A DNA stretch of 64,000 nucleotides from an uncultured virus (IMG/VR IMGVR_UViG_3300026430_000073). Its lineage: Duplodnaviria > Heunggongvirae > Uroviricota > Caudoviricetes. Below the pieces are notes generated by a model. That model had not been told where the DNA came from and did not search any database. It saw only the letters and a list, made by a program, of their open reading frames with translations. Location: positions 1-64,000 of the IMG/VR virus record IMGVR_UViG_3300026430_000073. One strand, 5' to 3'. Each line of letters opens with the position of its first letter. The first letter of the stretch is position 1. Positions 4,712 through 31,055 of the stretch are shown one piece after another. Position numbers and translations under genes: made by a program.

Positions 4712-4715
4712 GACT

Positions 4716-5740: not shown

Positions 5741-5804
5741 ACCTAGGAAGGGTAGTCAATAGTGACTACCCTAACCCGAACATACAACGACCGCGGAGGT
5801 CAAC

Positions 5805-6325: not shown

Positions 6326-6346
6326 ATTTCCCAAGGCACACATTAC
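6323..6346 (+). promoter_or_regulatory. Putative phage early promoter
   Basis: TAAA...CACACATTAC. Confidence 0.65.
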
Positions 6347-6393
6347 CAGCATAGACATGCGCTGTCTTTTGTCCCTAACCGAGGAGTAACATC

Positions 6394-6489
6394 ATGGCTA
6401 ACTTTCTTCGCAGTGTAGCTGTAGGCGTAACCGTAGTGGTTGTAGCCAACATCGTAATCTCCCAACTCCACAAACGCGGGTACATGTAA
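6394..6489 (+). CDS. Small hydrophobic peptide (31 aa)
   Basis: GAGGAG RBS; MANFLRSVAVGVTVVVVANIVISQLHKRGYM. Confidence 0.55.
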   Translation: MANFLRSVAVGVTVVVVANIVISQLHKRGYM

Positions 6490-6522
6490 CTCGATTCAAC
6501 CATCGACCGAGGAGGTCAACCA

Positions 6523-6810
6523 ATGCTTAACTTCATCGACATCGTTATCGCTATACTTACCGTCGGCGGCGCCACTTTCAGTGTCGGCATCCTGATCTAC
6601 GGGATTGGTTTCAGGGAAGGTGCGCGTTACTTGGTCAGCTACCACCGTGCGCTGGGTAAATGGTCCGCCAGCATCGACGTCGTGAGTTTGGGGCTGTTCT
6701 TGATCGCCTACAACTACTTCGGTATGTCGTGGAGCATCTGGGCCACCGTATACTCGACCTTCATGGTCTATGGCTACACCGCAATCGGCTGCTGCATACG
6801 CGCCGAGTAA
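6523..6810 (+). CDS. Membrane protein
   Basis: GGAGGT RBS; three hydrophobic segments. Confidence 0.7.
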   Translation: MLNFIDIVIAILTVGGATFSVGILIYGIGFREGARYLVSYHRALGKWSASIDVVSLGLFLIAYNYFGMSWSIWATVYSTFMVYGYTAIGCCIRAE

Positions 6811-6875
6811 GGATATGTCAGAGGCGGCCCAGCCGCCTCATTCCTTTCTTTTTTTTTGTCAGCGGAGTGGCAAGT

Positions 6876-7967
6876 ATGCCCAGCAAAAGTAAGGCCCAGT
6901 ACAAGCTTTTCGAGATCGCGTCTTACAACAAGGACTTCGCTGAGGCCCGCCACATAAACCAGGAACAAGCCAGGGAGTGGCACGCCGAAGATAAGAAGAA
7001 ACGCAAGGAAGATCCTAAGTGGTACGAGAATCTGCCGGAGAAAGCAGAAGACGACGACAAGAAGGATAAGAAAGAAAAGAAGAGCGACAAAAAGAAAGAT
7101 GACAAGAAGGGCGATGAATCCATGGAGGCTAAAGGCCTGCTGTGGGATATCGTGGTCGGCTTGACCAACTTCTTCAGCGGCACGAAGAAGAAAGATGAAG
7201 ACAGCAACGAGATCTACGAATCGAAGTGGACCTTCATCCAGAAAGCTGAGAAGACGGTGCAGGGCACCTACACGAACAAGGAATGGCTGTCGCAGATCGA
7301 AGTGACCGACGCCATGATCCCGTTCGGTGACATTGGTCCTCTGCTACGCCTGAAGCCTTGGCCTCAGAACCTGCTCGACGGCATCGAGAAAGGCGTCAAC
7401 GAGATCGAGAAGTTCCTGATCGATTACAGTCGGGAAATGACCAAGTACATGGGCAAGATGGAAACGCTCTGGGGTGAATTCCTCAAAGCCGATGACTACA
7501 CCGAAGCAAAGGTCAAGCTCCTGGCTGAGCAAGCCAAGATCGCAGGACCAATGAATGCGCTGAAAGTGCCGCGCGGTACACTCGGTAACTTCAAGATCGA
7601 AGTCAAACGCGACATCTACCACTCCATCGTACAAGAGCCTCAGAACAGCCCAAGCTACTGGCCAGCCCTTACCGTCAACGGTGTGGAGAAAGCCGGTAAG
7701 CTCATGTTCAGGATCCTTGGTATCCTTGACGATCAGTACGGTCGTCATGAGTGGTGGTACACCGACGTGATGGACGATTTCAAATGGGCTGCTCGCAACG
7801 GTAAGTTCGAGAAGAACGAGAAGAACGAGAACGCGTTCTACTCGGTGACTGAGTTGGTGGATAACTCCTACGACCCCGTCAACTACTATTACGACCAGCC
7901 AATGATCGACCAGCTCGTCAGAACGCTCAAAGCGCTCGACAAGTTGATCTCGGCCTCCGTCAAATAA
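6876..7967 (+). CDS. Probable virion head protein with processed N-terminus
   Basis: Start corrected to MPSKSKAQ (the upstream track ORF crosses a terminator). K/D-rich linker, ESME motif; C-terminal domain resembles the C-terminus of the 60578..64000 protein. Confidence 0.7.
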   Translation: MPSKSKAQYKLFEIASYNKDFAEARHINQEQAREWHAEDKKKRKEDPKWYENLPEKAEDDDKKDKKEKKSDKKKDDKKGDESMEAKGLLWDIVVGLTNFFSGTKKKDEDSNEIYESKWTFIQKAEKTVQGTYTNKEWLSQIEVTDAMIPFGDIGPLLRLKPWPQNLLDGIEKGVNEIEKFLIDYSREMTKYMGKMETLWGEFLKADDYTEAKVKLLAEQAKIAGPMNALKVPRGTLGNFKIEVKRDIYHSIVQEPQNSPSYWPALTVNGVEKAGKLMFRILGILDDQYGRHEWWYTDVMDDFKWAARNGKFEKNEKNENAFYSVTELVDNSYDPVNYYYDQPMIDQLVRTLKALDKLISASVK

Positions 7968-13462: not shown

Positions 13463-13783
13463 ATGCTGGGAACACTCCTCGTAATCGGGGCCTTTGTCAT
13501 AGGCCTTCTTGCCGGGAGTTTCCTGGCATGCTGGTGGGTTCTCCGTCGCGGCAGACGTATCGCCGAAGAACACAATGCTGACTTGAGAATCCTTCGTCGC
13601 CGGGCGAAACGGTACGGCTTCCTGCTCGACATGAACAATTTAGAAGTCGTGTGTTTCGAATGCGGTAATGCGAAGGGTGATGTCTGTCATGACGAGCAGA
13701 AGCGACTCGCGTTCATCCGTAAAATCAAAGCCCACAAACTACTGTACCTGAACATGCTGATGGAACACTTTGGAGTAAAGTAA
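13463..13783 (+). CDS. Hypothetical membrane-anchored protein
   Basis: N-terminal TM helix, CxxC motif. Confidence 0.65.
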   Translation: MLGTLLVIGAFVIGLLAGSFLACWWVLRRGRRIAEEHNADLRILRRRAKRYGFLLDMNNLEVVCFECGNAKGDVCHDEQKRLAFIRKIKAHKLLYLNMLMEHFGVK

Positions 13784-14640
13784 TGATCAAAGTAATTGCC
13801 ACCATGAACTTCGCCACTGGCGTAATGTCCCGCGACATCGCTGTCAAGATTGGCAAGTTCCCGGGCGGTGAGATCGATGTCAAACTCGATCCATGCGATG
13901 CACCGATGATCCGTCCTGACGTGACCATCGTAGCCCACCTCAGCAGCTCCGACCTGCTGATCGGTCTCATGCTCACCGCTGACGCTGTGCGTCGCCGCTG
14001 GCCGGGCTGTGCAGTACGTCTGTTCATCCCGTACCTGCCGTACGCTCGTCAGGACCGCGTCTGCAACGAAGGCGAGGCTCTGTCGCTGGCAGTGGTTGGG
14101 CAGATGATCAATTCGATCAATGCGGAAACCGTGACCATCGTGGACGCTCACTCCGAAGGCGCCATGACCGGTATCAACAACTGTGTCAACGTCAGCGCCC
14201 TGGAGTACATCGGTAAGCTCCACCTGCCCGAAGGTCTGGTGTTGATCGCTCCTGATGCCGGTGCGCTCAAGAAGACCTACCAGTACGCCAAAGAGCTCAA
14301 GGCGTCTGAAGTCATCGTGGCCAGTAAGCACCGTGACCCAGCTACCGGCAAGATCTCCCACACCGAGATCTACGGTGATGTTGATGGCAAGAATGTCATC
14401 ATCTTCGACGACATCTGTGATGGCGGCCGTACCTTCATGGAGCTTTCCAAGAAGCTGCGTGAGAAAGGCGCTAAGTACATGTCGCTGTTCGTAACCCACG
14501 GCATCTTCAGCCACGGCTACGACGAAATGCCGAAGTATTTCGATGCGATCTACAGCACCAACTCGTTCCACGGTAAAGGACGTGGCCCGCTCTGCCCTGA
14601 CGGCGAAGTGCGCGAAGGCTACCACTGGCTCGAAGTTTAA
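13783..14640 (+). CDS. prs: Ribose-phosphate pyrophosphokinase-like protein (probable NARP1 Adps)
   Basis: FPGGE, PYLPYARQDR, DAHS, APDAGA, DDICDGGRTF, VTHGIFS. Confidence 0.9.
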   Translation: MIKVIATMNFATGVMSRDIAVKIGKFPGGEIDVKLDPCDAPMIRPDVTIVAHLSSSDLLIGLMLTADAVRRRWPGCAVRLFIPYLPYARQDRVCNEGEALSLAVVGQMINSINAETVTIVDAHSEGAMTGINNCVNVSALEYIGKLHLPEGLVLIAPDAGALKKTYQYAKELKASEVIVASKHRDPATGKISHTEIYGDVDGKNVIIFDDICDGGRTFMELSKKLREKGAKYMSLFVTHGIFSHGYDEMPKYFDAIYSTNSFHGKGRGPLCPDGEVREGYHWLEV

Positions 14641-14667
14641 ACACCCACCCGCAAGCAAGGACGTAAC

Positions 14668-16731
14668 ATGTCTCTCAAGAAACTGTTCAAAGCTTTCAAG
14701 ATGTTCGGCCCTACCGGTACCGATGGCTACAAACAAGGCCATGGTCCGATGTATCCCGACGGTTCGTCGTTCCTCTACGCCAACAGCACCGCGCGTAGCG
14801 ACAAGATCTTCGCTCGATCGCCGAGTTGTAGTTCGATGTGGGACCGTAAGATCCTGGTCACCGGTCACGTAGCCGCGCTGCATGAAATCGTCAGCATGTG
14901 GGAAGAGAGCTTCTTCAGCAAGCCGAAGTCCGACGTGCTCTACAAGTTCAAGCGCCGCTGCGACACCTACATCGGCAAAGACAAGGTATCGGCCAAGTCC
15001 CTTGCCAACCTGCACGATATCGGTCACCTGCCGCTGCGTATCCTGGGCGTGGAAGAAGGTACCCGTCTGCCGATTGGCGTGCCTATGTACGTCATCTACG
15101 ACAGCAACGGTAATGTCATCGATGAAGGCTCCGAGTTCTTCTGGCTGGCCGAGTTCCTCGAAACCATCATGTCGAACATGACCTGGAAACAGGTTACCGT
15201 CGGCACCATTGCGTTCGAGTACCGTCGCGTCCTGACCAAGTGGGCCAAGATCACCGGCGTGCCTACCGACTTCGTCAAGTTCCAGGCTCACGACTTCTCG
15301 TACCGTGGCATGTCGGGTATGGAAGATGGCGCTCGTTGCGGCGCGGCTCACCTGCGCGTGTTCACCGGCAGTGATACCATGCCGGCCATCGACTACATCG
15401 AGCAGATGTACAACGGCGATGCCGAGAAGGTGATGATCGCAGGTACCATTCCTGCGACTGAGCACTCGGTGGCAACCGCGAACATCCTGAGTCGGCTGCG
15501 TCAGATGGTCAAGGCTCGTCGAGCCGAAGGCGCTACCGAAGAAGAGCTGCTCTCTGAACTGAAAGGCATGCGCCTGGAAGCAGAGCGTGGCTTCATCAAG
15601 GAAATGTTGACCGTCAAGTTCAAGACCGGCATGCTGGGCCTGGTGTGCGACAGCTTCGACTTCTTTGGCGTACTGACCTCGGTCCTGCCTTCGCTGAAGG
15701 AAGAGATCCTGGCTCGTCTGCCTGACGAGAACGGCATGGCCAAGCTGGTCATCCGTCCTGACTCGGGCGATCCTGTAGAAATCATCTGCGGCGTGGAAAT
15801 CCTGGACCAGCTTGCTGCCGAAGCTCAGATGGTGAACTACAAGCCGGAGTTCGTCTACTTCAAAGATCCGGAAGGCAAGATTCACAAAGCCACCAGTATC
15901 GCCGGTAAAGCGATCTCCCGCACCATCAGTCAGGTCAAGGCCGATCTGCCTGCGGTTGATCACAGCTACTACGACGAACTGATGACCGACGTGATGGGCT
16001 CCGCCGCCCTGTTCGACTACCCGTTCCCGATCAGCGCCGATTGCACCGACCCGGTCCGCTTCAAAGCGTATCGTGAGCTGCATGACCTGCTCGAGCTGCG
16101 CGGTGTCGAAGTCATGGTCATGGGTAAGGGCACTTACCGCAACGGCTACAAGATCGAACAGGTCGAGCTGTCGGCGCAAGAGAAGGGTGCCATCGAGCTG
16201 CTGTGGGAAACCTTCGGCGGTACCGAAACCGAACGCGGCTACAAAGTTCTGCACGAACGCATCGGCCTGATCTACGGCGATTCCATCACCGTACACCGCG
16301 CTGAAGAAATCTGCCGTCGTCTGGCGATCAAAGGTTTCGCATCGTGCAACGTCGTGTTCGGCGTCGGCTCCTACACCTACAACTACCTGACTCGCGATAC
16401 CTTCGGCATTGCCGTTAAGGCTACCGCGACCATGGTCAATGGTGAGATGGTCGAGCTGTACAAAGACCCAGCCACCGGTGACGGTCTGAAGAAGTCGGCC
16501 AAAGGCCTGCTGGCGCTGATCGACAGCGATGAAGGTATCGTGCTCAACCAAGAGCAAGATATGAAGATCGCCGAGATCCACGTCAAGTCTGGTCTGCTGA
16601 AACCGATCTTCATGGATGGCGGTTTCGTGGTTGATCCTAACCACACCGACATCTGTGCGAAGGTCGATCAGCACATCACCGAAACTACTGACCGGTGGTT
16701 CGAACTGCACGGCAATTCGAAAGTCGCGTAA
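14668..16731 (+). CDS. Nicotinamide phosphoribosyltransferase-like protein (probable NARP1 Namat)
   Basis: TDGYKQGH, HDFSYRG, GSDT, PATEHSV, IRPDSGDP, LIYGDSIT, FGVGSYTY, TRDTFG, KKSAKG. Confidence 0.9.
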   Translation: MSLKKLFKAFKMFGPTGTDGYKQGHGPMYPDGSSFLYANSTARSDKIFARSPSCSSMWDRKILVTGHVAALHEIVSMWEESFFSKPKSDVLYKFKRRCDTYIGKDKVSAKSLANLHDIGHLPLRILGVEEGTRLPIGVPMYVIYDSNGNVIDEGSEFFWLAEFLETIMSNMTWKQVTVGTIAFEYRRVLTKWAKITGVPTDFVKFQAHDFSYRGMSGMEDGARCGAAHLRVFTGSDTMPAIDYIEQMYNGDAEKVMIAGTIPATEHSVATANILSRLRQMVKARRAEGATEEELLSELKGMRLEAERGFIKEMLTVKFKTGMLGLVCDSFDFFGVLTSVLPSLKEEILARLPDENGMAKLVIRPDSGDPVEIICGVEILDQLAAEAQMVNYKPEFVYFKDPEGKIHKATSIAGKAISRTISQVKADLPAVDHSYYDELMTDVMGSAALFDYPFPISADCTDPVRFKAYRELHDLLELRGVEVMVMGKGTYRNGYKIEQVELSAQEKGAIELLWETFGGTETERGYKVLHERIGLIYGDSITVHRAEEICRRLAIKGFASCNVVFGVGSYTYNYLTRDTFGIAVKATATMVNGEMVELYKDPATGDGLKKSAKGLLALIDSDEGIVLNQEQDMKIAEIHVKSGLLKPIFMDGGFVVDPNHTDICAKVDQHITETTDRWFELHGNSKVA

Positions 16732-22864: not shown

Positions 22865-23710
22865 ATGAACGTCCCATTCCCTGTATTTGAAGGTATCTAC
22901 GTAGCCTGTAATAACCGCGGTGTAATGCCGATCAAGGCCGCGGTCCATTCGACCGATTACGGCATCAAGAACCACCATCTGGTGCAGTTCCTCTACGCCC
23001 ACCCGCCGGGCAAGTATCAGGGTCTGTCGCGCCCAAGTGCCGACAAGATCGAAATCACCTATGAAGAAGGTGATCTGAAAATCCAGGTGATTGGCTACGA
23101 GATTCTCGACCACTTCCGTAACATCGAGAAGGGCGGTAAGCCGCTCGAGTTCACCTACCCGGAAACTCTCCACTACGGTATCGACCTCGCTCAAGACCTC
23201 TGGGCGAATAGCCCGTTTGTGGAAGACGTGACCTACGCCACCTTCCTGGAGCGCACGGCGAAGAACGTAGCGGCCATCGCCGCAGCGCGCGTCCGTTGCC
23301 TGGTGATGGAATCTCGCTACATCGAAGAACTCACCAGCGCCAACCTGGTCCTGAAAGATCCGAACGTCAACCAGCACTCTGCCGGCCTGTTGCGTAACCT
23401 CCAGTTGGCAGTCCTGTATCCGCTGTTGCGTGCACGCTCCATTCGCGTACATATGTCGCCAATCGTGGCGGTCGAGCGTGCGCTGGAAGCCGTTCCTGCA
23501 CTGATGCGCGACGAGATCATCCACTACCTGACCAGCGACGAACAACCTCGCTCGACGTTCTCCGTCCCGCTCAAGAACTATATCGAACGCGTCATCGAAG
23601 ACGGCGCTCTCGATCAGTCCATGGTCGGCAATGCAATGACCGATGAAGAAGTCGAAGCTACCCTGCGCGACATCTTCTCCGATCTGCGGTTCGGCGCGAC
23701 GTTGAACTAA
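22865..23710 (+). CDS. Hypothetical protein
   Basis: Long ORF in operon. Confidence 0.75.
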   Translation: MNVPFPVFEGIYVACNNRGVMPIKAAVHSTDYGIKNHHLVQFLYAHPPGKYQGLSRPSADKIEITYEEGDLKIQVIGYEILDHFRNIEKGGKPLEFTYPETLHYGIDLAQDLWANSPFVEDVTYATFLERTAKNVAAIAAARVRCLVMESRYIEELTSANLVLKDPNVNQHSAGLLRNLQLAVLYPLLRARSIRVHMSPIVAVERALEAVPALMRDEIIHYLTSDEQPRSTFSVPLKNYIERVIEDGALDQSMVGNAMTDEEVEATLRDIFSDLRFGATLN

Positions 23711-23754
23711 CGACATAAGCGGCGGGGAAACCCGCCGTCTTTTTTTTGCTCAGT

Positions 23755-23779
23755 TAAAGAAATTAGGGTAACACATTAC
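23755..23779 (+). promoter_or_regulatory. Putative phage early promoter
   Basis: TAAA...AACACATTAC directly after terminator 23713-23748. Confidence 0.65.
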
Positions 23780-23814
23780 TGCCCTGGATAACCACCATTA
23801 ATAAGGACAGCAAC

Positions 23815-24375
23815 ATGTTGGCTTTCAATAGCGTCGAACGCTCCCGCATCTACACCGCCATCGGCAAGATGATCAAGAAAGATCGAGGCTTCCCGCACTT
23901 GCGCTTCATGGCATTTAACGAAGTCTTCGCGATCACCAAAGCGCACATGTCGGCCCAAGGTCTAGGTACTCGCGGCGGCGTTTACACGTACGAGAATAGC
24001 TTCGGCCTCGGCGTGATGATTCATGGGGAATATGGCAACGTCGCTATCGAGGTTTCCCACGACTGTAAGGACACCAACATGTTCGTGTCTCCGCAGTACG
24101 TGTTCCACGACCGTCAGGTCGAGGGCCTGGTGGAGATGTCGAAGACGGCAATGAACTTGATGGTTCGCTGCATGTGCGCAGGCTTTAGCCTCGAAGCTGT
24201 CATGCAGTGGTTCGATAGCATCTATCGTCTCCACACCAACCGCCGCACCTCGCCTAACTTCAACCCGCAGCAAACGTTCGACAAGATGTGCACGTTCCTT
24301 GAGCCGGGTTGCCGACTCATCGAAAACAAATACCAAAGTCTCATCAATAACGAGAGACTACATTCCTGGTTCTGA
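23815..24375 (+). CDS. Hypothetical protein
   Basis: AAGGA RBS. Confidence 0.7.
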   Translation: MLAFNSVERSRIYTAIGKMIKKDRGFPHLRFMAFNEVFAITKAHMSAQGLGTRGGVYTYENSFGLGVMIHGEYGNVAIEVSHDCKDTNMFVSPQYVFHDRQVEGLVEMSKTAMNLMVRCMCAGFSLEAVMQWFDSIYRLHTNRRTSPNFNPQQTFDKMCTFLEPGCRLIENKYQSLINNERLHSWF

Positions 24376-24386
24376 GGATAAGTGAA

Positions 24387-24797
24387 ATGCCGCTACGCAA
24401 GCAAACTCAACCCGCTCCAGTCTATAAACCCATCTACGTGGGCGATACCTACACTACCAAGCGTAAAGGGTCACACGCAACCCTAAGCGTATACGTGGTG
24501 GAAGTCAAACGTGATAAGGTGAAGCTCAAGCGCGATCAGTTCTGCGTAGATAGCTTCACCGAATCCCGGGCCAAGATGGACGCCTACTACGTCCGTCAAG
24601 AAGACAAGTCCACCCGTTGCCATGATGAATGCGTAAAGAACATCATCGGCTTCGCAGACGCCAGTCTCGCAATACGTCGAGCAATCGTCGAGCATCGCAT
24701 GAAGCATAACGCCCAGTTCGATGAGTTCGTAAAGAGCACCACCTCCTGTGACGTCAATCACGTCGTCACGGAGTTTTCTCTGCGTACGGCACTCTAA
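24387..24797 (+). CDS. Hypothetical protein
   Basis: GAGGA RBS. Confidence 0.7.
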   Translation: MPLRKQTQPAPVYKPIYVGDTYTTKRKGSHATLSVYVVEVKRDKVKLKRDQFCVDSFTESRAKMDAYYVRQEDKSTRCHDECVKNIIGFADASLAIRRAIVEHRMKHNAQFDEFVKSTTSCDVNHVVTEFSLRTAL

Positions 24798-24845
24798 GCC
24801 TACGCATTAACAATACCGACACCACACGGTGTTTAGGAGAGCCAC

Positions 24846-25769
24846 ATGGCTAGCAATAACATTCACAGCGCAACTTCGACAATCTCGGCCAGACTGATCG
24901 TTCTGGCAATGGAGAGAAGAACCACTACCTACGAAGAGCTCGCAGGTCTCGTGGGCATCCCTAACAGGGGCAACCAGATGGCCAAGACCATCGGCGGTCT
25001 GCTCACCCACATCTTCCACTTCTGCATCGAGAAGAACTGGCCGCACCTGACCTCGCTCGTCGTACGTAAGTCGGGCACCAACGCCGGACTGCCCGGTTCT
25101 GGATTCTGGAATCTGCTGGAAGAAGTGGGGGCTGAAGAAGCCAAGGCCTACACCAGCGGCGCACTATTCTGCGCCCCGAAGAATGTCAGGGCATCTATCG
25201 CAGGGTATCTGCAACTGCGCTGCTACGCTTACTTCGAAAAGCTCAACGGACCATCGGTGTTCGAGGAGTACCACATCGCAGACTCTGGCCGGCTTCAAAG
25301 ACCTCCAAGCGGTTACTCGAAAAACGCAGCTGCCCCTACCGACTCCGAGTTGGCGGAAATCCCTTACTTCAATCTCCTCAAGGAGTGCGAACGTGAGTTC
25401 ATCAAATCTCGGTTTTCGAGATGCGGGATGGATGAGCTTGAGGAATTCATCTCGCTGGTCCTCAATAGATCTGCCGATCTCCCAATGACCCTGCCGTCCA
25501 ACTTGCATCATCTCCGTTCCAGGTTTGCCGGACTCAGAATTCCTGGAGAGGGTGGGAAGACCTACTACGAAGTATCCCAAGAGGTCTGCTGGCACATTAC
25601 CGGCTACAAGGAACTGCGCGTCGATGAACAGCAGTTCCTGATTCGCCACCTGGCGGCGCGTAGTCCGCTGGCTCGTGATCGCGAGATCTCGATCATCAAT
25701 AACCTCGGCTTCAACATCCCAGTCGCGCGCATTCGCCAATACCTCCTCAATGAAGAGAACCCGACCTAA
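24846..25769 (+). CDS. Winged-helix-like N-terminal domain protein
   Basis: TTTYEELA...L..I...C....WPHLTSLVVRK...G.PGSGF pattern. Confidence 0.55.
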   Translation: MASNNIHSATSTISARLIVLAMERRTTTYEELAGLVGIPNRGNQMAKTIGGLLTHIFHFCIEKNWPHLTSLVVRKSGTNAGLPGSGFWNLLEEVGAEEAKAYTSGALFCAPKNVRASIAGYLQLRCYAYFEKLNGPSVFEEYHIADSGRLQRPPSGYSKNAAAPTDSELAEIPYFNLLKECEREFIKSRFSRCGMDELEEFISLVLNRSADLPMTLPSNLHHLRSRFAGLRIPGEGGKTYYEVSQEVCWHITGYKELRVDEQQFLIRHLAARSPLARDREISIINNLGFNIPVARIRQYLLNEENPT

Positions 25770-25987
25770 TGGAAGGCATGAACGTAAACATCGAGCTCAA
25801 TCCCGATGAACCACTCCCTGAGTGGATGTTGGCCAAGAACGCTGAAGAGACTGACTCCGAACGCGTGATTGACCTACTGGAAGAAGCGCTCGGGTCTTAC
25901 GAACGCCTCGGTCGGATACAGCGCCGTGACGTGATGGATCTGATCGCCACTCTGGAAGAGCATGGGTTGAAACTCGAACTCATCTGA
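25769..25987 (+). CDS. Acidic hypothetical protein
   Basis: TAATG coupling. Confidence 0.6.
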   Translation: MEGMNVNIELNPDEPLPEWMLAKNAEETDSERVIDLLEEALGSYERLGRIQRRDVMDLIATLEEHGLKLELI

Positions 25988-26163
25988 GGACGAGCTATGA
26001 AACATAAACCTCCGCTCAAGCCATTCACGGCTAAGCAGAAGAAAGCAATGTGTCGATTGAAGATCATCATGGCAGTTACCATGGCGATCTCCATGTTGAT
26101 GCGTTGATCCACAAGCCGCGGGGCTAACCACCCCGCGTTCTTTTTTTTTGTCGAGAAATCAAA

Positions 26164-26472
26164 ATGACCCGAGAAACCATGGACTTCCGTCAACGTATCG
26201 AGAACGTCATCAAAGACGTGGCCGCAGAGAATAACCTTCCGTTCACTGAGGTAGGTCTGGCCGAACTTACCGAGCTCATGCAGCCTAAGGTTCATGAGAT
26301 CATCTGGGTGCTGCTCGGTCTGGATCCTGAAGATGTCGAGGTGAAGATCGCTATCACCGCATCTCCTGTAGAGCGGGCAACGCATACCTGGAAGACCGAC
26401 ATCAACATCAAGGCCGGTACTCCTCGTCCTGGCTGTAAAGGTTGCCGGAGTTGCTCGAAGGGATCTCATTGA
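26164..26472 (+). CDS. Hypothetical protein with C-terminal CxxCxxC
   Basis: ORF ending GCKGCRSCSKGSH. Confidence 0.65.
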   Translation: MTRETMDFRQRIENVIKDVAAENNLPFTEVGLAELTELMQPKVHEIIWVLLGLDPEDVEVKIAITASPVERATHTWKTDINIKAGTPRPGCKGCRSCSKGSH

Positions 26473-26518
26473 TTTCCGTACATTTTTACGGAACGTGTAG
26501 ATAAGATGTAAGAAAGAT

Positions 26519-26594
26519 AGTGCCGTAGCTCAGCTGGTAGAGCGCACCCCTGATAAGGGTGAGGTCGGTGGTTCAATCCCACTCGGTACTACCA
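26519..26594 (+). tRNA. tRNA-Ile(GAU)
   Basis: AGTGCCG/CGGTACT acceptor, CACCC-CTGATAA-GGGTG anticodon arm, encoded CCA. Confidence 0.95.
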
Positions 26595-26603
26595 CTTGCA
26601 TCT

Positions 26604-26687
26604 GGATGGGTTCCCGAGCGGTCAAAGGGAGCGGCCTGTAAAGCCGCCATTAATTTTTCGAAGGTTCGAATCCTTCCCCATCCACCA
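26604..26687 (+). tRNA. tRNA-Tyr(GUA)
   Basis: GGATGGG/CCCATCC acceptor, GCGGC-CTGTAAA-GCCGC, long variable region, CCA. Confidence 0.95.
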
Positions 26688-26692
26688 TTTAC

Positions 26693-26757
26693 GACCCTTG
26701 CCAGGCAGCGTATTACGCAGCGCGCTTAACTAGCCGTAGATCGGCTGGAGGGTCACC
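26693..26757 (+). ncRNA. Short tRNA-like RNA (acceptor-like stem + T-arm-like hairpin, no anticodon arm)
   Basis: GACCCTT/GAGGGTC stem then A-CC; TAGCCG-TAGAT-CGGCTG hairpin directly before the 3' strand. Confidence 0.5.
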
Positions 26758-26763
26758 CTTTGT

Positions 26764-26839
26764 TCCACGATAACTCAGTCGGTAGAGTAGCGGACTGTTA
26801 ATTCGCCTGTCCCTGGTTCGAGTCCAGGTCGTGGAGCCA
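26764..26839 (+). tRNA. tRNA-Asn(GUU)
   Basis: TCCACGA/TCGTGGA acceptor, GCGGA-CTGTTAA-TTCGC, G73, CCA. Confidence 0.95.
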
Positions 26840-26847
26840 TTTTCAAT

Positions 26848-26925
26848 CGGGGTATAGCTTAGCCTGGCCTAAAGCAGCGGCCTTTGACGCCGCGATCATT
26901 GGTTCGAATCCAATTACCCCTGCCA
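26848..26925 (+). tRNA. tRNA-Gln(UUG)
   Basis: CGGGGTA/TACCCCT (1-72 mismatch), GCGGC-CTTTGAC-GCCGC, G73, CCA. Confidence 0.9.
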
Positions 26926-26933
26926 AATCAGAA

Positions 26934-27100
26934 GCTCGGTACTCCTATGCCAAGCCTAAGATCCTAGCCCCGTGCCCTCCCTACCCGAGGCGCTATAGCT
27001 GCACGTAAGGCTTTGTAGTTACATTAGACCCTACGACGACGAGGAGCCAGTCTGTTGGCTTTGAGTTATCAGGGAAGCGCCAGCGCCGCACATGCCGAGC
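26934..27100 (+). ncRNA. Unknown multi-stem structured RNA
   Basis: Nested pairings GCTCGGTA/TGCCGAGC, CTCCT/AGGAG, AAGCCT/AGGCTT, CGTGC/GCACG; no ORF. Confidence 0.55.
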
Positions 27101-27227
27101 ACTGTTCTAGCATGGTCAGACACTAGCTAGTACCGCGCAAACCTGCCTGAAGCGATATGAAGGCACCTTGGCCACTAGGGTAATTAGTGGCAAGACCTGG
27201 GGAATGTCCTCCCCAGGCGCTTATTCT

Positions 27228-27376
27228 AACTCTGTAGCTCATTGGTAGAGCGTCCTCACCTTCCTGAAAAGGATTGCAGGTTCGAGTCCTGCTTGGCCGG
27301 CACTATCGGCCAATGGCGGAATTGGTAGACGCAAACATGAGGAAGGCAGCGGGTTCGATTCCCTGCTAGAGTTACC
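27228..27376 (+). ncRNA. Double-elbow tRNA-like RNA 1 (permuted class-II tRNA body in place of the anticodon loop)
   Basis: Outer acceptor AACTCTG/TAGAGTT with D and T arms; inner variable arm, T arm, TTGGCCG/CGGCCAA acceptor and Leu-type D arm, in permuted order. Confidence 0.85.
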
Positions 27377-27384
27377 TATTCAAT

Positions 27385-27534
27385 AGCACTGTAGCTCAGT
27401 TTGGTAGAGCGTCGTCCCTCCCTTAAGGTCGCCGGTTCGAGTCCGGCATCGCCCGTATGGGTGATTAGCTCAGTTGGTTAGAGCGTAAGGCCAACTTGAC
27501 GAAGGTCACTGGTTCAATTCCAGTCAGTGCTCCC
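27385..27534 (+). ncRNA. Double-elbow tRNA-like RNA 2 (permuted class-I tRNA body in place of the anticodon loop)
   Basis: Outer AGCACTG/CAGTGCT; inner CCTTA/TAAGG stem, GCCGG-TTCGAGT-CCGGC, ATCGCCC-GTAT-GGGTGAT, D arm. Confidence 0.9.
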
Positions 27535-27552
27535 TATTCAGAGAAACTTGTG

Positions 27553-27828
27553 ATGCGCAATAAGCAACTGAAAGAACTCGAGGTTAGTCCAGAACTGGAA
27601 GCCAAGATAATCAGGCTGCTGCACGTCCACGGGGATCTCTACACCACCGACCTCGTTGCGTTCGATAAGGTCGGTAATTTCTTCAGAAAGCAAACCGAAG
27701 AAAGCATCACCGCTATGGGTAAAGAACCTAAGTGGTGGCGCTGGAAAGGTTTTGCCGGTACCGAAATCCTGTACGATGGTTTCTTTGATGACCTCGAACA
27801 GTTCATGATCTCGGAAGGTTTGCTTTAA
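27553..27828 (+). CDS. Hypothetical protein within the RNA cluster
   Basis: Start moved to ATG 27553 because the track's TTG start lies inside RNA 2. Confidence 0.7.
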   Translation: MRNKQLKELEVSPELEAKIIRLLHVHGDLYTTDLVAFDKVGNFFRKQTEESITAMGKEPKWWRWKGFAGTEILYDGFFDDLEQFMISEGLL

Positions 27829-27835
27829 GCTACAT

Positions 27836-27947
27836 GCTTCCTTAACTCAGTTGGTAGAGTGCCGTCTTCGAGCCTCCTGGCCCCTTAAATGGGGCAGGCT
27901 CACCATACCTGGCGGAAGTCCGAAGTTCGATTCTTCGAGGAAGCCCC
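27836..27947 (+). ncRNA. tRNA-scaffold RNA 3 (hairpin in place of the anticodon loop)
   Basis: GCTTCCT/AGGAAGC acceptor, D arm, CCGTC/GGCGG stem, CGAAG-TTCGATT-CTTCG T arm; ends C-CC-TATT. Confidence 0.85.
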
Positions 27948-27953
27948 TATTCT

Positions 27954-28040
27954 CGTTCCTTAGCTCAGCTGGTTAGAGCGTCGGCCCCTTAGCTAAAAGA
28001 CACGCCGAAGGTCCGTGGTTCAAATCCACGAGGAACGCCC
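27954..28040 (+). ncRNA. tRNA-scaffold RNA 4 (18-nt loop in place of the anticodon loop)
   Basis: CGTTCCT/AGGAACG, TCGGC/GCCGA stem, CGTGG-TTCAAAT-CCACG; ends C-CC-TATT. Confidence 0.85.
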
Positions 28041-28070
28041 TATTCATCCAACCACCCGCAGAGATCTTTC

Positions 28071-28796
28071 ATGACTCAGAACTATCTGGTGAACAAGAAC
28101 GTTACTGTCCTCGCCTGGTCGTCTCAATCCGGCGAAGATGGTAAGCCTGGCTACAACGTCAAAGACGAAGCCGGCAACGTAACCTGGCAATCGGAAGAGC
28201 AGTTCCTGAAAGATCACTTGCCGCTCGGTCACATCGACAGCCGCCCGGCGCATGTCCAGCGCATGATTATCGAGCAAGCGCAACTGACCGCGCGTCACAA
28301 AGGTCTGTGCTCGTTCCTCTACAACGTGGGTCAGGGCGCCAAGCCTGAAGGTCTTTCCGATCTCGATGTAGACATGATGATGCAGCAAGGCGCGTTCATG
28401 GACAAGTACTCCACTGTCCTGCGTCGTCGCATTGGCCGCGCTACCGAGCGTCGCCTCGAAGCCAAGAACCTGCCGTTGGTCGATGGTAAGTTCAACGTGT
28501 TCGGCTTCGGCGATCCCAGCGTGTTGGATCTGACCGACAGCGTCGGCGCTATCCGCTTCAACAACGTCCGCACGGCCGATGGTATCAAGCTGTCCCATGA
28601 CCTCTCTGCTATCAAGCAGATCGAAGGTCAGCGTACTCAGAACTACACCCTCAGCATCCCTGGTGCTGAAGACATCTACCTGAAGGTAGATCCTGAGCGC
28701 GCCTTGCTTTCCATCACCGTGCCGTCCAGCATCAAGACCGAGCTGTTCTTCGACCTCGAGGTTGTTCTCGAGAACCCGAACTACCGCTGCGCGTAA
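28071..28796 (+). CDS. Phage protein with 'GY.V....G...W' N-terminal domain and crAss001_48-like helical domain
   Basis: GYNVKDEAGNVTWQSEEQF; HVQRMIIEQAQL..R...L..F...Q...M..Y..VL.RRI. Confidence 0.55.
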   Translation: MTQNYLVNKNVTVLAWSSQSGEDGKPGYNVKDEAGNVTWQSEEQFLKDHLPLGHIDSRPAHVQRMIIEQAQLTARHKGLCSFLYNVGQGAKPEGLSDLDVDMMMQQGAFMDKYSTVLRRRIGRATERRLEAKNLPLVDGKFNVFGFGDPSVLDLTDSVGAIRFNNVRTADGIKLSHDLSAIKQIEGQRTQNYTLSIPGAEDIYLKVDPERALLSITVPSSIKTELFFDLEVVLENPNYRCA

Positions 28797-28803
28797 GTTT
28801 TAT

Positions 28804-28929
28804 CTCCGCCTAGCTCAGATGGTAGAGCGCACTCTTTCGGTTCGATTCCGAACATGCCCATCCCTTCGGGGTTCGGCGTGGATCAGGTACATGAGTGAGG
28901 TCCGTGTCTCGAAAACACGGGTGGAGACC
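28804..28929 (+). ncRNA. tRNA-scaffold RNA 5 (degenerate double-elbow)
   Basis: CTCCGCC/GGTGGAG, D arm, CACTC/GAGTG; insert contains TTCGG-TTCGATT-CCGAA and CATGCC/GGCGTG capped by a UUCG hairpin; ends A-CC-TATT. Confidence 0.8.
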
Positions 28930-28933
28930 TATT

Positions 28934-29083
28934 TTCCAACGTGGTATCGCTAAAGTGTCGCAATCGTCCAAAACGCTACATCAGGACATCGCCCAGCAAT
29001 GGGGAAAATTTAGGTACGACCCGAAATCCTAACTGCGACCGCTCAACAATACAATAGGCGATACACTGGGTATGTTGGAGACC
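28934..29083 (+). ncRNA. Unknown structured RNA with tRNA-like 3' end
   Basis: TTCCAACGT/ATGTTGGAG, GTATCGC/GCGATAC, GTCGCA/TGCGAC stems; ends A-CC-TATT. Confidence 0.6.
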
Positions 29084-29100
29084 TATTAGGAGAGAGTGCA

Positions 29101-29304
29101 ATGCTTGAGTCGTATGAAGAAGGAGTGGATTACAAGTCTCCTAGCGGACTGCGATTCAAAGTCCTGTATAAGGCGCAACATGGGCAAGATTGCTCTTGGC
29201 CGATGGTGGTCTACACAAATGTGGAGCCTACCCATGATGCACCGGCAGGGAAGATCTGGACCATTGCTGAGTCCATCTTCATGCGCACCTTCTCCGATTT
29301 CTAA
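29101..29304 (+). CDS. DUF1653-like small beta-barrel protein
   Basis: Y...SG..FKVL..A.H......MVVY...IW......F...F pattern; AGGAG RBS. Confidence 0.55.
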   Translation: MLESYEEGVDYKSPSGLRFKVLYKAQHGQDCSWPMVVYTNVEPTHDAPAGKIWTIAESIFMRTFSDF

Positions 29305-29322
29305 ACAATACAGGATACCGGC

Positions 29323-29511
29323 ATGAGCGAAGCTACCAAGTTCGAACCAGGTGATGTCGTCTACCTCAAAAGCGGTTCTCCGGAACTGACCGTCGAGCGT
29401 TATGATGAGGAAGACGAGCACACGGTGGTTCGTTGGATGGCCGATGGTGAAGTTCGCGCTACCGGCTTCCCGGCGGCTTGCCTGACTAAGGAAAAGCCCA
29501 AGTTCCTGTAA
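29323..29511 (+). CDS. YodC/DUF2158 family protein
   Basis: FEPGDVVYLKSGSPELTV...V.W...G......FP...L. Confidence 0.8.
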   Translation: MSEATKFEPGDVVYLKSGSPELTVERYDEEDEHTVVRWMADGEVRATGFPAACLTKEKPKFL

Positions 29512-29518
29512 CGATCAT

Positions 29519-29649
29519 CCCTGGCTAGCGGCTGGCGCTACTCCGGCGAACTGCGATACGATATACTGGAAAGGGTTTCATGCCTGACGCACTTTCCCGT
29601 GTCCGTCGTTTATTAGTTGGTGGGGAGTTCAAATCTCCCGCTCGGGGCC
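29519..29649 (+). ncRNA. tRNA-like RNA with canonical T arm and long internal region
   Basis: GGGAG-TTCAAAT-CTCCC, imperfect acceptor CCCTGGC/GCTCGGG, G-CC-T end, followed by a terminator. Confidence 0.55.
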
Positions 29650-29653
29650 TAAA

Positions 29654-29687
29654 CATACTGCCGGGATAGATCCCGGCTTTATGCCGT
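29654..29687. terminator. Terminator closing the RNA cluster
   Basis: GCCGGGA-TAGA-TCCCGGC-TTTATGCCG. Confidence 0.75.
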
Positions 29688-29738
29688 AAACTTTCATTTA
29701 TGCTGGCAAATGTATGTCAGAGAATACCGGAGCTTAGC

Positions 29739-30119
29739 ATGGCCTTTTGGACAGCGCAGATTAGCCAGTGGAGACTGGTGCAGGATAGGGGAATCATCCT
29801 GGCCGATACCACGGTAAAGTCAGCTGTGGAGTACGAGTTTCTCGCACCCACTTGGACGATGGTCATGAACCACAAGGGCGAGCTCATAACCGACGAGATG
29901 TATACCGAACAATACCTAGCGCTATTACGCGATCGGTACGGTAGTTGGCGTCGGTCTTTCTACGATCTGCTCGAATTGGGACGAGACAGTGAGGTGGCCA
30001 TTGCGTGCTATTGTAGTCCCGGTAAGTTCTGTCACCGACACTTAAGCATAAACGTTTTACGGAAGATCGCTGAGAAGGCGAACTTACCGTTTGAATATAA
30101 AGGCGAGATTACAAGATGA
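29739..30119 (+). CDS. DUF488-like protein
   Basis: LAPTW, Y...Y...L, ACYC....FCHRH motifs; GGAG RBS before ATG 29739. Confidence 0.7.
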   Translation: MAFWTAQISQWRLVQDRGIILADTTVKSAVEYEFLAPTWTMVMNHKGELITDEMYTEQYLALLRDRYGSWRRSFYDLLELGRDSEVAIACYCSPGKFCHRHLSINVLRKIAEKANLPFEYKGEITR

Positions 30120-30643
30120 GTAAGAAAACGGTCTCACAACCTCCCTTCAATCCGAAGGAGATGGTACAGAGCCTGCTGGCGCCATTCCACGCCGAACAGG
30201 AGTGGTTCGAGGAACAGTACAGAAGGGCAGCTCCTCCAGACGACATCTGGTTGCGTGACTGGAAGACTGTGGGGTTCTTCGTCCCACGTCAGACCGGCCG
30301 TACCAGAGCTTTGGCTCAGATCTTCAACCTGGTAGGTGAGGCGCTCTACATCGTACCGAACCTCAGGATCAAGAAGATGCTGATCCAGAACTGTGCGAAC
30401 GAGAACCCTGATTTCATCGGGTATCCCCGTGCAGAATTAGAAAGCGTTCGTGTGTGTACGCCATACGAAGTAAAGCGCTCGATCCTGCATCGGAAGAAAG
30501 GTCTGCCCGATCCTATTCCCCCAGCAAAGCTCATCATCGTCGACGATGCCAGTTACTTCTTCTGCAATATGAAGTATACGCAGTTCTACGAATGGCTGGC
30601 TCAACGCGGTGGTCGTGATCAAGTGATCCTTCGGGTCAACTGA
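30116..30643 (+). CDS. Small degenerate P-loop NTPase-like protein
   Basis: VPRQTGRT (Walker A-like, K to R) and IIVDDA (Walker B-like). Confidence 0.5.
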   Translation: MSKKTVSQPPFNPKEMVQSLLAPFHAEQEWFEEQYRRAAPPDDIWLRDWKTVGFFVPRQTGRTRALAQIFNLVGEALYIVPNLRIKKMLIQNCANENPDFIGYPRAELESVRVCTPYEVKRSILHRKKGLPDPIPPAKLIIVDDASYFFCNMKYTQFYEWLAQRGGRDQVILRVN

Positions 30644-30646
30644 CTG

Positions 30647-30670
30647 TAACTAATCACAACCACACATTAC
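30647..30670 (+). promoter_or_regulatory. Putative phage early promoter
   Basis: TAAC...CACACATTAC. Confidence 0.65.
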
Positions 30671-30710
30671 CGTATAGAGCAACACCAACCCAACTGCAAT
30701 GGAGCTTCAC

Positions 30711-30986
30711 ATGCAACTGACCGCTGAACAAATCGCCAAGCTATCCACCGAGAACGGCGAAACCTACGCTACTCTGGCGCATCTGAGCGACCAAGGCGCC
30801 AGCCTGGTATTCGGTGACAATTCCATGGAATCGGTCCTGGTCGGCGATACCGCCATCACCGAAACCATCGGCACCCGTATCTACTTCGGCACCGACGGCA
30901 AAGTGACCCGCAGCACCGCACCGACCTACAAGGCACCGGCTCCGAAGCAGGGTCAAGGTTCGACGGCACTGCGCCCGGACCTTTAA
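30711..30986 (+). CDS. Hypothetical early protein
   Basis: GGAG RBS; monocistronic between promoter and terminator. Confidence 0.7.
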   Translation: MQLTAEQIAKLSTENGETYATLAHLSDQGASLVFGDNSMESVLVGDTAITETIGTRIYFGTDGKVTRSTAPTYKAPAPKQGQGSTALRPDL

Positions 30987-31055
30987 GCAGCACAAGCGAG
31001 AGCAGGGTCGAAAGACCCTGCTCTTTATGTCGTTTTATTTTGTAAGGAGATAGAT

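What the first reader, a model, noticed from the sequence alone, without database searches (positions are those of the whole stretch)
27385..27534. tRNA within a tRNA: a complete circularly permuted tRNA body replaces the anticodon loop (double-elbow RNA 2)
Seen, outer tRNA: acceptor AGCACTG(27385)/CAGTGCT(27531), D arm GCTC-AGTTTGGTA-GAGC, anticodon stem TCGTC/GACGA, variable AGGTC, T arm ACTGG-TTCAATT-CCAGT. Seen, inner tRNA in place of the 7-nt loop, in 3'-half-first order: CCTTA, AGGTC, GCCGG-TTCGAGT-CCGGC, ATCGCCC, a GTAT loop, then GGGTGAT-TA-GCTC-AGTTGGTTA-GAGC-G-TAAGG. The inner acceptor stem is sealed by a tetraloop. The two anticodon stems meet head-to-head through a CCTC/CCAACTT internal loop. 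Every stem pairs, so this is not random decay. Inference: a dumbbell RNA with two D/T elbows, one free 3' end and no anticodon. I do not know this architecture from bacteria or phages. Permuted tRNA genes are known from red algae and Thermofilum, but those are spliced to decoding tRNAs. Possible roles are a bivalent decoy for tRNA-targeting defence effectors, or a ligand for elbow-binding factors.
Basis: partly seen in the sequence, partly recalled or inferred. Interest (0 to 1): 0.96.

Follow-up and report, generated by a model that had tools for sequence, protein, structure and literature searches.

The report
Two-bodied anticodon-less phage tRNA mimic
A giant phage's tRNA gene row holds a conserved 150-base RNA gene that folds into two tRNA-shaped bodies joined where the anticodons should be, so it cannot read codons and most likely works by imitating tRNA; a cultured Xanthomonas phage carries one too, so it can be tested.

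Summary
Window 27385-27532 pairs in all 42 proposed base pairs. Four variants of the same phage clade keep 168 of 168 pair cells, with 8 compensatory double changes. Across 8 sequences from 5 lineages, 28 of 34 stem pairs covary.

ARAGORN calls a tRNA body for the outer part with the insert removed, and for the re-permuted insert, but not for the units as they lie.

The inner part (T arm, sealed acceptor hairpin, D arm) has a precedent. It is the tRNA-like head of YrlA Y RNAs (Rfam RF02553, 37.7 bits, below the cut-off of 69). The Ro60-binding handle is missing. No Ro60 gene lies in the window's contig or in three complete carrier genomes.

The host is a phiKZ-like jumbo phage. Its tRNA cluster holds five tRNA bodies without an anticodon loop, each ending N-CCT-ATT.

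Best reading: a natural tRNA scaffold carrying a second tRNA head, which acts by mimicry and not by decoding. The function is untested.

I found no such nested design in Rfam or in four literature searches. Earlier notes of this scan report the same design on other phage DNA. Xanthomonas phage RTH11 carries an unannotated copy.

The parts
27385..27391 (+). outer acceptor stem, 5' strand (AGCACTG)
   Evidence: Pairs 7/7 with 27525-27531. An A-T to G-C double change occurs in L007/L008. The sequences are wholly different but complementary in G006, RTH11, G007 and L331.
27394..27410 (+). outer D arm (GCTC-AGTTTGGTA-GAGC)
   Evidence: 4 bp, invariant in the clade. Carries the GG of the D loop. U8 and A14 are present.
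27412..27416 (+). outer anticodon stem, 5' strand (TCGTC)
   Evidence: Pairs with 27498-27502. Two pairs change on both sides in L007-L009.
27417..27420 (+). 5' side of the internal loop (CCTC)
   Evidence: Unpaired. CCAC in L009, 1 nt in RTH11, absent in L331.
27421..27490 (+). inner YrlA-type permuted tRNA module: closing stem CCTTA/TAAGG, AGGTC, T arm 27431-27447, sealed 7-bp acceptor hairpin 27448-27465 (loop GTAT), TA, D arm 27468-27484
   Evidence: Rfam YrlA positions 23-85 of 114, 37.7 bits, E 3.4e-6. Three inner acceptor pairs change on both sides. The closing stem covaries across lineages. The re-permuted module is called a tRNA by ARAGORN.
27491..27497 (+). 3' side of the internal loop (CCAACTT)
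   Evidence: Unpaired. CAACTA in RTH11, different in G006.
27498..27502 (+). outer anticodon stem, 3' strand (GACGA)
   Evidence: helix 3.
27503..27524 (+). outer variable loop AGGTC and outer T arm (ACTGG-TTCAATT-CCAGT)
   Evidence: Two T-stem pairs change on both sides.
27525..27532 (+). outer acceptor stem, 3' strand (CAGTGCT) plus discriminator C
   Evidence: helix 1.
27533..27539 (+). CCTATTC trailer: CCT stands where the canonical tRNAs of this cluster encode CCA
   Evidence: The same motif, in the same register, follows all 5 odd RNAs of the cluster (27375, 27533, 27946, 28039, 28928). G006, RTH11 and L331 have N-CCA here.
27228..27381 (+). sister RNA 1: the same nested design, with a Leu-type inner D arm and an extra small hairpin
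   Evidence: Model R1 scores 85.4 bits. Alignment A3. The inner module is identical in 3 clade variants.
27836..27952 (+). tRNA body with a 41-nt hairpin in place of the anticodon loop (RNA 3)
   Evidence: Rfam tRNA 48 bits with a 41-nt insert. Covaries in L007-L009. Similar RNAs occur in Ralstonia phages RP12 and FLC4-3B.
27954..28045 (+). tRNA body with a 17-nt anticodon loop (RNA 4)
   Evidence: ARAGORN gives tRNA-???. Rfam tRNA 54.7 bits with a 17-nt insert.
28804..28934 (+). RNA 5: tRNA body with a degenerate inner T arm and hairpin
   Evidence: R1 scores 49.1 bits. Sequence read. Counterparts in G006 (L270:5124-5253) and RTH11 (L415:1347-1488).
26519..26925 (+). four canonical tRNA genes (Ile, Tyr, Asn, Gln) at the head of the same-strand cluster, each with an encoded CCA

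Best explanation
RNA 2 is a real, conserved, non-decoding RNA gene of about 148-151 nt in the tRNA cluster of a phiKZ-like jumbo phage. It folds into two tRNA-like L-shaped bodies joined through their anticodon stems.

Shown: the secondary structure, its covariation, the elements needed for both D/T elbows, and its recurrence in 5 lineages, 3 of them phiKZ-like jumbo phages (window clade, G006, RTH11).

Inferred mechanism: the outer body (acceptor stem, D arm, T arm, N-CC(A/U) end) works as a natural tRNA scaffold. It lets the host's tRNA-processing enzymes cut the RNA out of the cluster transcript and protects it, as in engineered tRNA-scaffold fusions. The payload in the anticodon position is a YrlA-type tRNA head with a sealed acceptor end. 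The molecule therefore acts by binding proteins that recognise tRNA shape (elbow, acceptor-T minihelix), as a sponge or a tether. It does not act in decoding and does not need a phage Ro60. Which protein it binds is unknown.
For: Structure and covariation. The inner module matches YrlA in topology and in D/T stem sequence, at a score (37.7 bits) inside the range of classical-looking phage YrlA RNAs (32.5-44 bits, hits in 11 of 12 loci).

Scaffold reading: five RNAs of the same cluster keep the tRNA body but replace the anticodon loop with different inserts, namely two YrlA-type heads, a 41-nt hairpin, a 17-nt loop and a degenerate head. All end N-CCT-ATT in one register. The engineered tRNA scaffold uses the same parts and the same insertion site, and is processed and protected in E. 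coli (PMC3753655, passages).

What varies and what is kept: stem sequences differ freely between lineages, while the tertiary-structure elements of both bodies (U8, A14, the D-loop GG, T loop TTCRANT, AGGTC) are kept. This fits selection on shape.

Other support: RNA 2 is 94% identical across clade variants whose neighbouring protein is 67-76% identical. G-U pairs fit only the + strand. No Ro60, RtcB or CCA-adding enzyme is encoded in three complete carrier genomes.
Against: No expression, end-mapping or binding data exist. The RNA-library runs held only contigs, and these cover the whole phage evenly, so they do not show transcription.

No conserved protein neighbour points to a partner. A host Ro60 cannot be excluded, because the host is unknown.

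A pure scaffold reading does not explain why the payload is itself a full tRNA head. The G007 copy stands alone, with no tRNA in the 5.8 kb I read. My collection scans needed exact motifs and three were capped, so the distribution is a lower bound.
Confidence: 0.55

Rival explanations
1. It is processed into two pieces. RNase P cuts the loop of the 7-bp inner acceptor stem, as it does in M. smegmatis YrlA. The 3' ends are trimmed and receive CCA. The product is a strand-swapped heterodimer of two tRNA-length RNAs with two open acceptor ends. This can hold together with the mimic reading.
For: RNA 2 reads as two tandem tRNA-length units (71 and 74 nt) whose acceptor and anticodon-stem strands are swapped. 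In L331 the inner loop reads G-CCA-CTT, which is a discriminator, CCA and a 3-nt spacer, and the outer end is also G-CCA. The inner acceptor stem is 7 bp in the window clade and in L331. M. smegmatis YrlA, with a 7-bp stem, is cut by RNase P RNA in vitro and gains CCA in vivo (PMC4201824, passages).
Against: The inner stem is 6 bp in G006, 5 bp plus a mismatch in RTH11 and 5 bp in G007. By the YrlA authors' reasoning these are poor RNase P substrates. Only 1 of 5 lineages has CCA in the inner loop. No read data exist.
Confidence: 0.15
2. It is a true Y RNA: the central helix and internal loop bind a host Ro60/Rsr, and the RNA gates or tethers that protein.
For: The inner head is YrlA-like. Phage YrlA-type RNAs are common: 48 distinct sealed T-hairpin-D modules appeared in a capped scan, most with GGCGAAG-type handles. 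Some Pseudomonas species and one Ralstonia species carry Ro60 (supplement of PMC4201824).
Against: Rfam model positions 1-22 and 86-114 (the handle) do not align. No GNCGAA motif lies on the 5' strand. GNCGAAG on the 3' strand is present in 3 of 5 lineages only and overlaps the generic stem/AGGTC junction. There is no TROVE gene in the 74-kb contig, in 5 relatives' fragments, or in 3 complete carrier genomes. No Xanthomonas appears among the Ro60 carriers in the searched supplement files; file 6 was not searched.
Confidence: 0.12
3. It has no function in trans. The tRNA-like bodies serve only as punctuation, giving RNase P and 3'-processing sites that cut the polycistronic transcript around the small ORFs.
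For: The odd RNAs flank ORFs 27544-27828 and 28071-28796. A shared trailer motif follows each of them.
Against: One tRNA body would be enough. The second head is conserved and covaries. ORF 27544-27828 is absent in L007-L009 while both nested RNAs stay. The inner module of RNA 1 is invariant.
Confidence: 0.1
4. It is a precursor of decoding tRNAs (a permuted or split gene that is spliced), or a decayed tandem tRNA pair.
For: It lies in a tRNA cluster. The linear order D-T-D-T is that of two tandem tRNAs, and partial Rfam tRNA hits of 25.2 and 27.0 bits lie on the two units.
Against: Only 11, 7 or 0 unpaired bases lie at the junction, which cannot make two anticodon loops. The acceptor strands of each linear unit do not pair, and ARAGORN finds no tRNA in either unit. 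Every stem substitution in the clade keeps pairing, which decay would not do.
Confidence: 0.03

Closest known systems
YrlA (Y RNA-like A; Rfam RF02553; Chen et al. 2014, PMC4201824; structure preprint 10.1101/312249)
   Same: The order closing stem, variable region, T arm, sealed acceptor-like hairpin, D arm. Conserved GCUC/GAGC D stem and GC-rich T stem. tRNA tertiary elements. No anticodon loop. Often encoded beside tRNAs. Present in phages.
   Different: Here the 5'/3' Ro60-binding handle is replaced by a complete second tRNA body with an open acceptor end. The score is 37.7 bits against a cut-off of 69. No Ro60 gene is present in the carrier genomes.
M. smegmatis YrlA (same paper)
   Same: A 7-bp sealed acceptor stem, as in the window clade. 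It is cut by RNase P and given CCA, which is the model for the two-piece rival.
   Different: It is bound by Rsr and has a handle. It has one tRNA-like head only.
Engineered tRNA scaffold for recombinant RNA (Ponchon et al., PMC3753655)
   Same: Acceptor stem, D arm and T arm are kept, and the anticodon stem-loop is turned into an insertion site. The fusion is processed and shielded from nucleases.
   Different: It is man-made. This is a likeness of working principle only, not of descent.
Phage T4 stable RNAs rnaC and rnaD (species 1 and 2; NC_000866 70908-71171)
   Same: Non-decoding stable RNAs of 139 and 119 nt at the end of a phage tRNA cluster. rnaC ends in a T arm plus an acceptor-like stem.
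   Different: They have no nested second tRNA head. Model R1 gives no match on them.
Circularly permuted tRNA genes of red algae and Thermofilum
   Same: The 3' half is encoded before the 5' half.
   Different: Those mature into decoding tRNAs with an anticodon loop. This RNA has none and sits inside another tRNA body.

Membership tests
YrlA / bacterial Y RNA (RF02553) | tRNA-like domain in the order T arm, closed acceptor-like stem-loop, D arm, closed by a stem | tested here: met
   cmscan alignment to model positions 23-85. Pairing and covariation.
YrlA / bacterial Y RNA (RF02553) | Reaches Rfam's gathering score over the full model | tested here: not met
   37.7 bits against 69, and a local match only. 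Classical-looking phage YrlA RNAs also fail it, at 32.5-44 bits.
YrlA / bacterial Y RNA (RF02553) | Handle formed by the 5' and 3' ends, with GNCGAAN0-1G on the 5' strand (the Ro60 site) | tested here: not met
   The ends form a tRNA acceptor stem instead. No such motif lies on the 5' strand.
YrlA / bacterial Y RNA (RF02553) | Encoded near a Ro60/TROVE gene | tested here: not met
   PF05731 is absent from G000 (74 kb), from 5 relatives' fragments, and from G006, G007 and RTH11 (all complete).
YrlA / bacterial Y RNA (RF02553) | Bound by Ro60/Rsr | not testable with these tools
   Needs immunoprecipitation or a binding assay.
tRNA (RF00005) | Cloverleaf with a 7-nt anticodon loop | tested here: not met
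   ARAGORN makes no call at 27385-27534. Rfam gives only partial hits of 25.2 and 27.0 bits, below the cut-off of 29.
tRNA (RF00005) | 7-bp acceptor stem, D arm and T arm with elbow-forming loops | tested here: met
   Met twice over, by the outer and the inner body.
tRNA (RF00005) | 3' CCA end and aminoacylation | tested here: inconclusive
   The window clade encodes CCT. G006, RTH11 and L331 encode CCA, and G007 encodes neither. The acceptor identity bases are not conserved. Charging cannot be tested here.
Permuted tRNA genes that mature into decoding tRNAs | The mature product carries an anticodon loop | tested here: not met
   The junction has 11, 7 or 0 unpaired bases.

The most novel reading that the evidence does not exclude
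These nested RNAs are a distinct, Ro60-independent class of phage non-coding RNA: bivalent tRNA mimics. The tRNA body is used as a modular carrier, and the two heads, sealed or opened by RNase P, engage a host tRNA-handling or tRNA-targeting factor. Such factors matter for nucleus-forming jumbo phages, whose translation stays exposed in the cytoplasm. The class is already present in a cultured phage, Xanthomonas phage RTH11.
Probability: 0.4. Interest if true: 0.85.

Novelty: new variant of a known kind. Interest (0 to 1): 0.72.

Why it matters
Phage tRNA clusters are read almost only as codon-usage or anti-defence supplies of decoding tRNAs. This window has five conserved genes that keep the tRNA body and discard the anticodon. 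Two of them carry a whole second tRNA head. tRNA finders miss them: ARAGORN makes no call on RNA 2, and the RTH11 copy is unannotated.

If the mimic reading holds, it would show Y-RNA-type tRNA mimicry working without Ro60. It would give a natural precedent for the tRNA-scaffold trick. It would also point to a so far unknown host factor that phages address through tRNA shape. Because a cultured phage carries a copy, the question can be tested at the bench.

Tried and rejected
1. Assembly artefact: rejected. Contigs of 4 other libraries span the locus with 0 differences.

2. Evidence of transcription from the 21 RNA-labelled runs: not usable. Only contigs are kept, they cover the whole phage in pieces of up to 234-243 kb, and DNA carry-over cannot be excluded. 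The joints in table 5c of that call are other organisms' tRNAs.

3. Scan for the CCTATTC trailer in viral contigs (capped at 117 loci). Model R1 on 100 of those loci gave 48 hits. The 7 long hits I examined were tandem tRNAs, single tRNAs, or one tRNA with a large insert. None was nested. In the window as a whole the motif is not enriched, with 13 found against 9.1 expected. Only its register after the five RNAs is notable.

4. L263, L303 and L353 passed my script's filter but are tandem anticodon-less tRNA-like units with their own acceptor stems, so I dropped them. L034, L069 and L087 are tandem tRNAs of giant viruses.

5. T4 rnaC and rnaD as homologues: no R1 match.

6. Four cultured relatives (FLC4-3B, RP12, HPP-Temi, D6): no nested RNA at E <= 0.001.

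7. Conserved protein neighbour: none. The ORF beside the G006 copy is an alginate lyase, unrelated to the window's neighbour.

8. Own-scan notes by place and by sequence gave nothing on this genome.

9. The Ro60-site motif on the 3' strand (GACGAAG) is judged chance. It is absent in L007-L009.

Full report
**What is there.** The window is the first 64 kb of a 74-kb viral contig, estimated about 30% complete. It comes from a phiKZ-like jumbo phage. Among 75 ORFs scanned, Pfam finds phiKZ internal head protein, peptidase S80, thymidylate synthase and DHFR. The closest cultured relatives by one long protein are Ralstonia phages of the RP12 group (about 35% identity) and Pseudomonas jumbo phages.

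On the + strand, 26519-28934 is an RNA gene row. It starts with four canonical tRNAs (Ile, Tyr, Asn, Gln), each with an encoded CCA. Five tRNA-like genes without a normal anticodon loop follow:
- RNA 1, 27228-27381
- RNA 2, 27385-27539 (the finding)
- RNA 3, 27836-27952
- RNA 4, 27954-28045
- RNA 5, 28804-28934

ARAGORN and Rfam at gathering thresholds call nothing here. A single-sequence fold is better than 200 of 200 shuffles (z -2.82). However, the MFE (-53.4 kcal/mol) misses both anticodon stems and the inner D arm, and the proposed fold scores -49.8. Thermodynamics alone is therefore only mild support.

Built inside a script, the outer body without the insert and the re-permuted insert are each called a tRNA by ARAGORN, and the two units as they lie are not. 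The anticodon labels of those calls mean nothing.

**Relatives and covariation.** The neighbouring protein (28071-28796) brought in six viral loci: three identical, two at 76% and one at 67% identity. All those with enough upstream DNA carry RNA 1 and RNA 2.

On the four distinct RNA 2 sequences, 168 of 168 pair cells are standard pairs. Eight pairs change on both sides: outer acceptor 1, outer anticodon stem 2, inner acceptor 3, outer T stem 2. No shuffle of 500 reaches this, and slid controls pair in 25-38% of cells. The inner anticodon stem, the inner T stem and both D stems do not vary in this clade.

RNA 2 is 94% identical across these variants, while the neighbouring protein has drifted to 67-76%. 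The inner acceptor loop grows from 4 to 9 nt.

**More lineages.** I scanned with a pattern that demands a shortened spacing from D arm to T arm, then a T arm, 14-34 nt, and a D arm. It gave 24 viral loci and 120 metagenome loci (capped).

A parsing script found 147 matches. Of these, 91 had a downstream T arm, and 15 passed the filter of outer acceptor at least 6 of 7 pairs and inner hairpin at least 5 of 7 pairs. After removing duplicates and three tandem pairs (L263, L303, L353), these lineages remain:
- the window clade
- G006, a complete 253,921-bp phiKZ-like phage with terminal repeats (R1 119.2 bits)
- G007, a complete 61.8-kb phage without phiKZ head proteins (78.2 bits)
- L331, a metagenome contig

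BLAST of RNA 2 against 50,697 phage records found 61 records. Only one covers at least 80% of the query: Xanthomonas phage RTH11 (OQ790161.1, 312 kb, phiKZ-like). Its record positions 75849-76002 score 100.6 bits with R1, lie inside its tRNA cluster, and carry no annotation.

Over the 8 sequences of these 5 lineages, 28 of 34 stem pairs (D stems left out) change on both sides, and 261 of 272 cells pair. Some misses come from my fixed-register split of L331's central helix, which is a continuous 14-bp duplex. The outer acceptor strands are AGCACTG, ACTTCTA, GCGAATG, GGGGTGC and GCACTGG, each with its complement about 140 nt away. What is kept everywhere is what a tRNA needs for its L-shape, twice over: U8, A14, the D-loop GG, T loop TTCRANT, and an AGGTC-type variable loop.

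**What it is like.** In a permissive Rfam scan, 27423-27488 matches YrlA (RF02553) at model positions 23-85 of 114, with 37.7 bits and E 3.4e-6. The gathering score is 69. YrlA is the Y RNA of Ro60-bearing bacteria and phages. Its effector module is a tRNA-like domain in the order T arm, sealed acceptor-like hairpin, D arm, and its 5' and 3' ends form a Ro60-binding handle with a GNCGAAN0-1G motif (PMC4201824, passages). The structure paper calls most YrlA RNAs likenesses of circularly permuted tRNAs with closed acceptor stems (10.1101/312249, passages). So the inner tRNA is a known design.

A capped scan of viral contigs (117 loci) held 48 distinct sealed T-hairpin-D modules. Nearly all have GGCGAAG..GGTTACTTC-type handles. 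Only the window's clade has a full tRNA around the module. Those classical-looking phage RNAs score 32.5-44 bits (hits in 11 of 12 loci), so 37.7 bits is typical for them.

Membership in YrlA nevertheless fails on three defining features:
- The cut-off is not reached.
- The handle is absent.
- No Ro60 gene is present in the 74-kb contig, in five relatives' fragments, or in the complete genomes G006, G007 and RTH11.

RtcB and a CCA-adding enzyme are also absent. The supplement tables of the YrlA paper list no Xanthomonas among Ro60 carriers, though one file could not be searched.

**How it most likely works.** The five odd RNAs share the outer body and differ in what replaces the anticodon loop. 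This is the logic of the engineered tRNA scaffold, in which acceptor stem, D arm and T arm secure processing and protection and the anticodon stem carries the insert (PMC3753655, passages).

All five end N-CCT-ATT(C/T) in one register. In G006, RTH11 and L331 the nested RNA ends N-CCA. I therefore infer that the outer body serves maturation and stability, and that the two tRNA-shaped heads are the working surface that binds proteins recognising tRNA shape. This is inference. No expression or binding data could be obtained.

RNA 2 can also be read as two tandem tRNA-length units with swapped acceptor and anticodon-stem strands. In L331 the inner loop is G-CCA-CTT. An RNase P cut, as in M. smegmatis YrlA, could therefore yield a two-piece dimer. 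The 5- and 6-bp inner stems of other lineages argue that this is not general.

**Rejected readings.**
- A precursor of decoding tRNAs is excluded by the junction, which has 11, 7 or 0 unpaired bases.
- Decay is excluded by covariation.
- A DNA-level element is unlikely, because the G-U pairs fit only the + strand.
- Transcript punctuation alone does not explain a conserved second head. ORF 27544-27828 is dispensable, while the RNAs are kept.

**Novelty.** Rfam 15 has no family for the nested RNA. Four full-text searches turned up no description of a tRNA-in-tRNA or double-elbow phage RNA: YrlA/phage/tRNA-like; tRNA-like/bacteriophage/anticodon/decoy; tRNA mimic/phage/elbow/Y RNA; permuted tRNA/bacteriophage. 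A search for RTH11 found no paper. [quoted passage not shown] The jumbo-phage survey PMC7824862 (passages read) notes TROVE proteins with a tRNA-like partner in a few non-phiKZ groups only.

Earlier notes of this scan describe the same nested design on other phage and archaeal-virus DNA, also with YrlA as the closest known family. These are unchecked AI notes, not independent evidence. They suggest the design recurs.

I rate this a new variant of a known kind. It is real, conserved and testable, and its function is unknown.

Noticed in passing
window 27228-27381: Sister RNA 1 has the same nested design. Its inner module (T arm, 7-bp hairpin with loop GCACTAT, Leu-type D arm GCGGAATTGGTAGACGC) is identical in three clade variants. 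In the window copy the outer T stem has two mismatches or a bulge, and a small extra hairpin replaces the inner closing stem seen in L007.
   Followed up: partly
window 27836-27952; Ralstonia phages FLC4-3B 128301-128416 (-) and RP12 131861-131972 (-): A tRNA body whose anticodon loop is replaced by a GC-rich hairpin followed by ACCAUACC-like bases. Similar unannotated RNAs exist in two cultured Ralstonia jumbo phages, and ARAGORN finds no gene there.
   Followed up: partly
window 28804-28934; L270:5124-5253; L415:1347-1488: RNA 5 type: a tRNA body with a short inner T arm plus a long hairpin. It is conserved in G006 and in Xanthomonas phage RTH11.
   Followed up: partly
window 27375, 27533, 27946, 28039, 28928: Every odd RNA ends N-CCT-ATT(C/T), while the four canonical tRNAs of the cluster encode N-CCA. 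In G006 the canonical tRNAs end CCA-TATTC. This may be a shared 3' processing signal.
   Followed up: partly
window 26957-27222: An ORF-free stretch of about 270 nt between tRNA-Gln and RNA 1. It is 83% identical to L007. RNAalifold on two sequences gives 75 pairs, 5 of them with compensatory changes. It ends in a GC hairpin. No Rfam family matches it.
   Followed up: partly
window 28935-29090: Another candidate structured RNA: a long-range stem (CCAAC..GTATCGC with GCGATAC..GTTGG) that ends AGACCTATT, just before the next start codon.
   Followed up: no
L331 about 250-325: Next to its nested RNA, this metagenome contig has a tRNA with anticodon loop TTCTAAC (anticodon CUA, an amber reader). 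This hints at stop-codon recoding or suppression in that phage.
   Followed up: no
L263 282-436; L260, L267, L269, L262, L246: Other anticodon-less designs in viral contigs. Some are tandem tRNA-like units whose anticodon stems are capped by tetraloops. Others are chains in which D arm, short linker, T arm and sealed hairpin repeat.
   Followed up: no
window 13687-16710 (-): One 1007-aa ORF matches two adjacent genes of relatives (nicotinamide phosphoribosyltransferase and ribose-phosphate pyrophosphokinase), which suggests a fusion here. Pfam gave no hit at E 0.001.
   Followed up: no
window 23000-31000 in runs X4, X6, X11, X22: Soil libraries labelled as metatranscriptomic hold this phage in contigs of up to 234-243 kb at word depths of 150 to 7000. 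This looks like whole-genome cover and not like transcripts.
   Followed up: no
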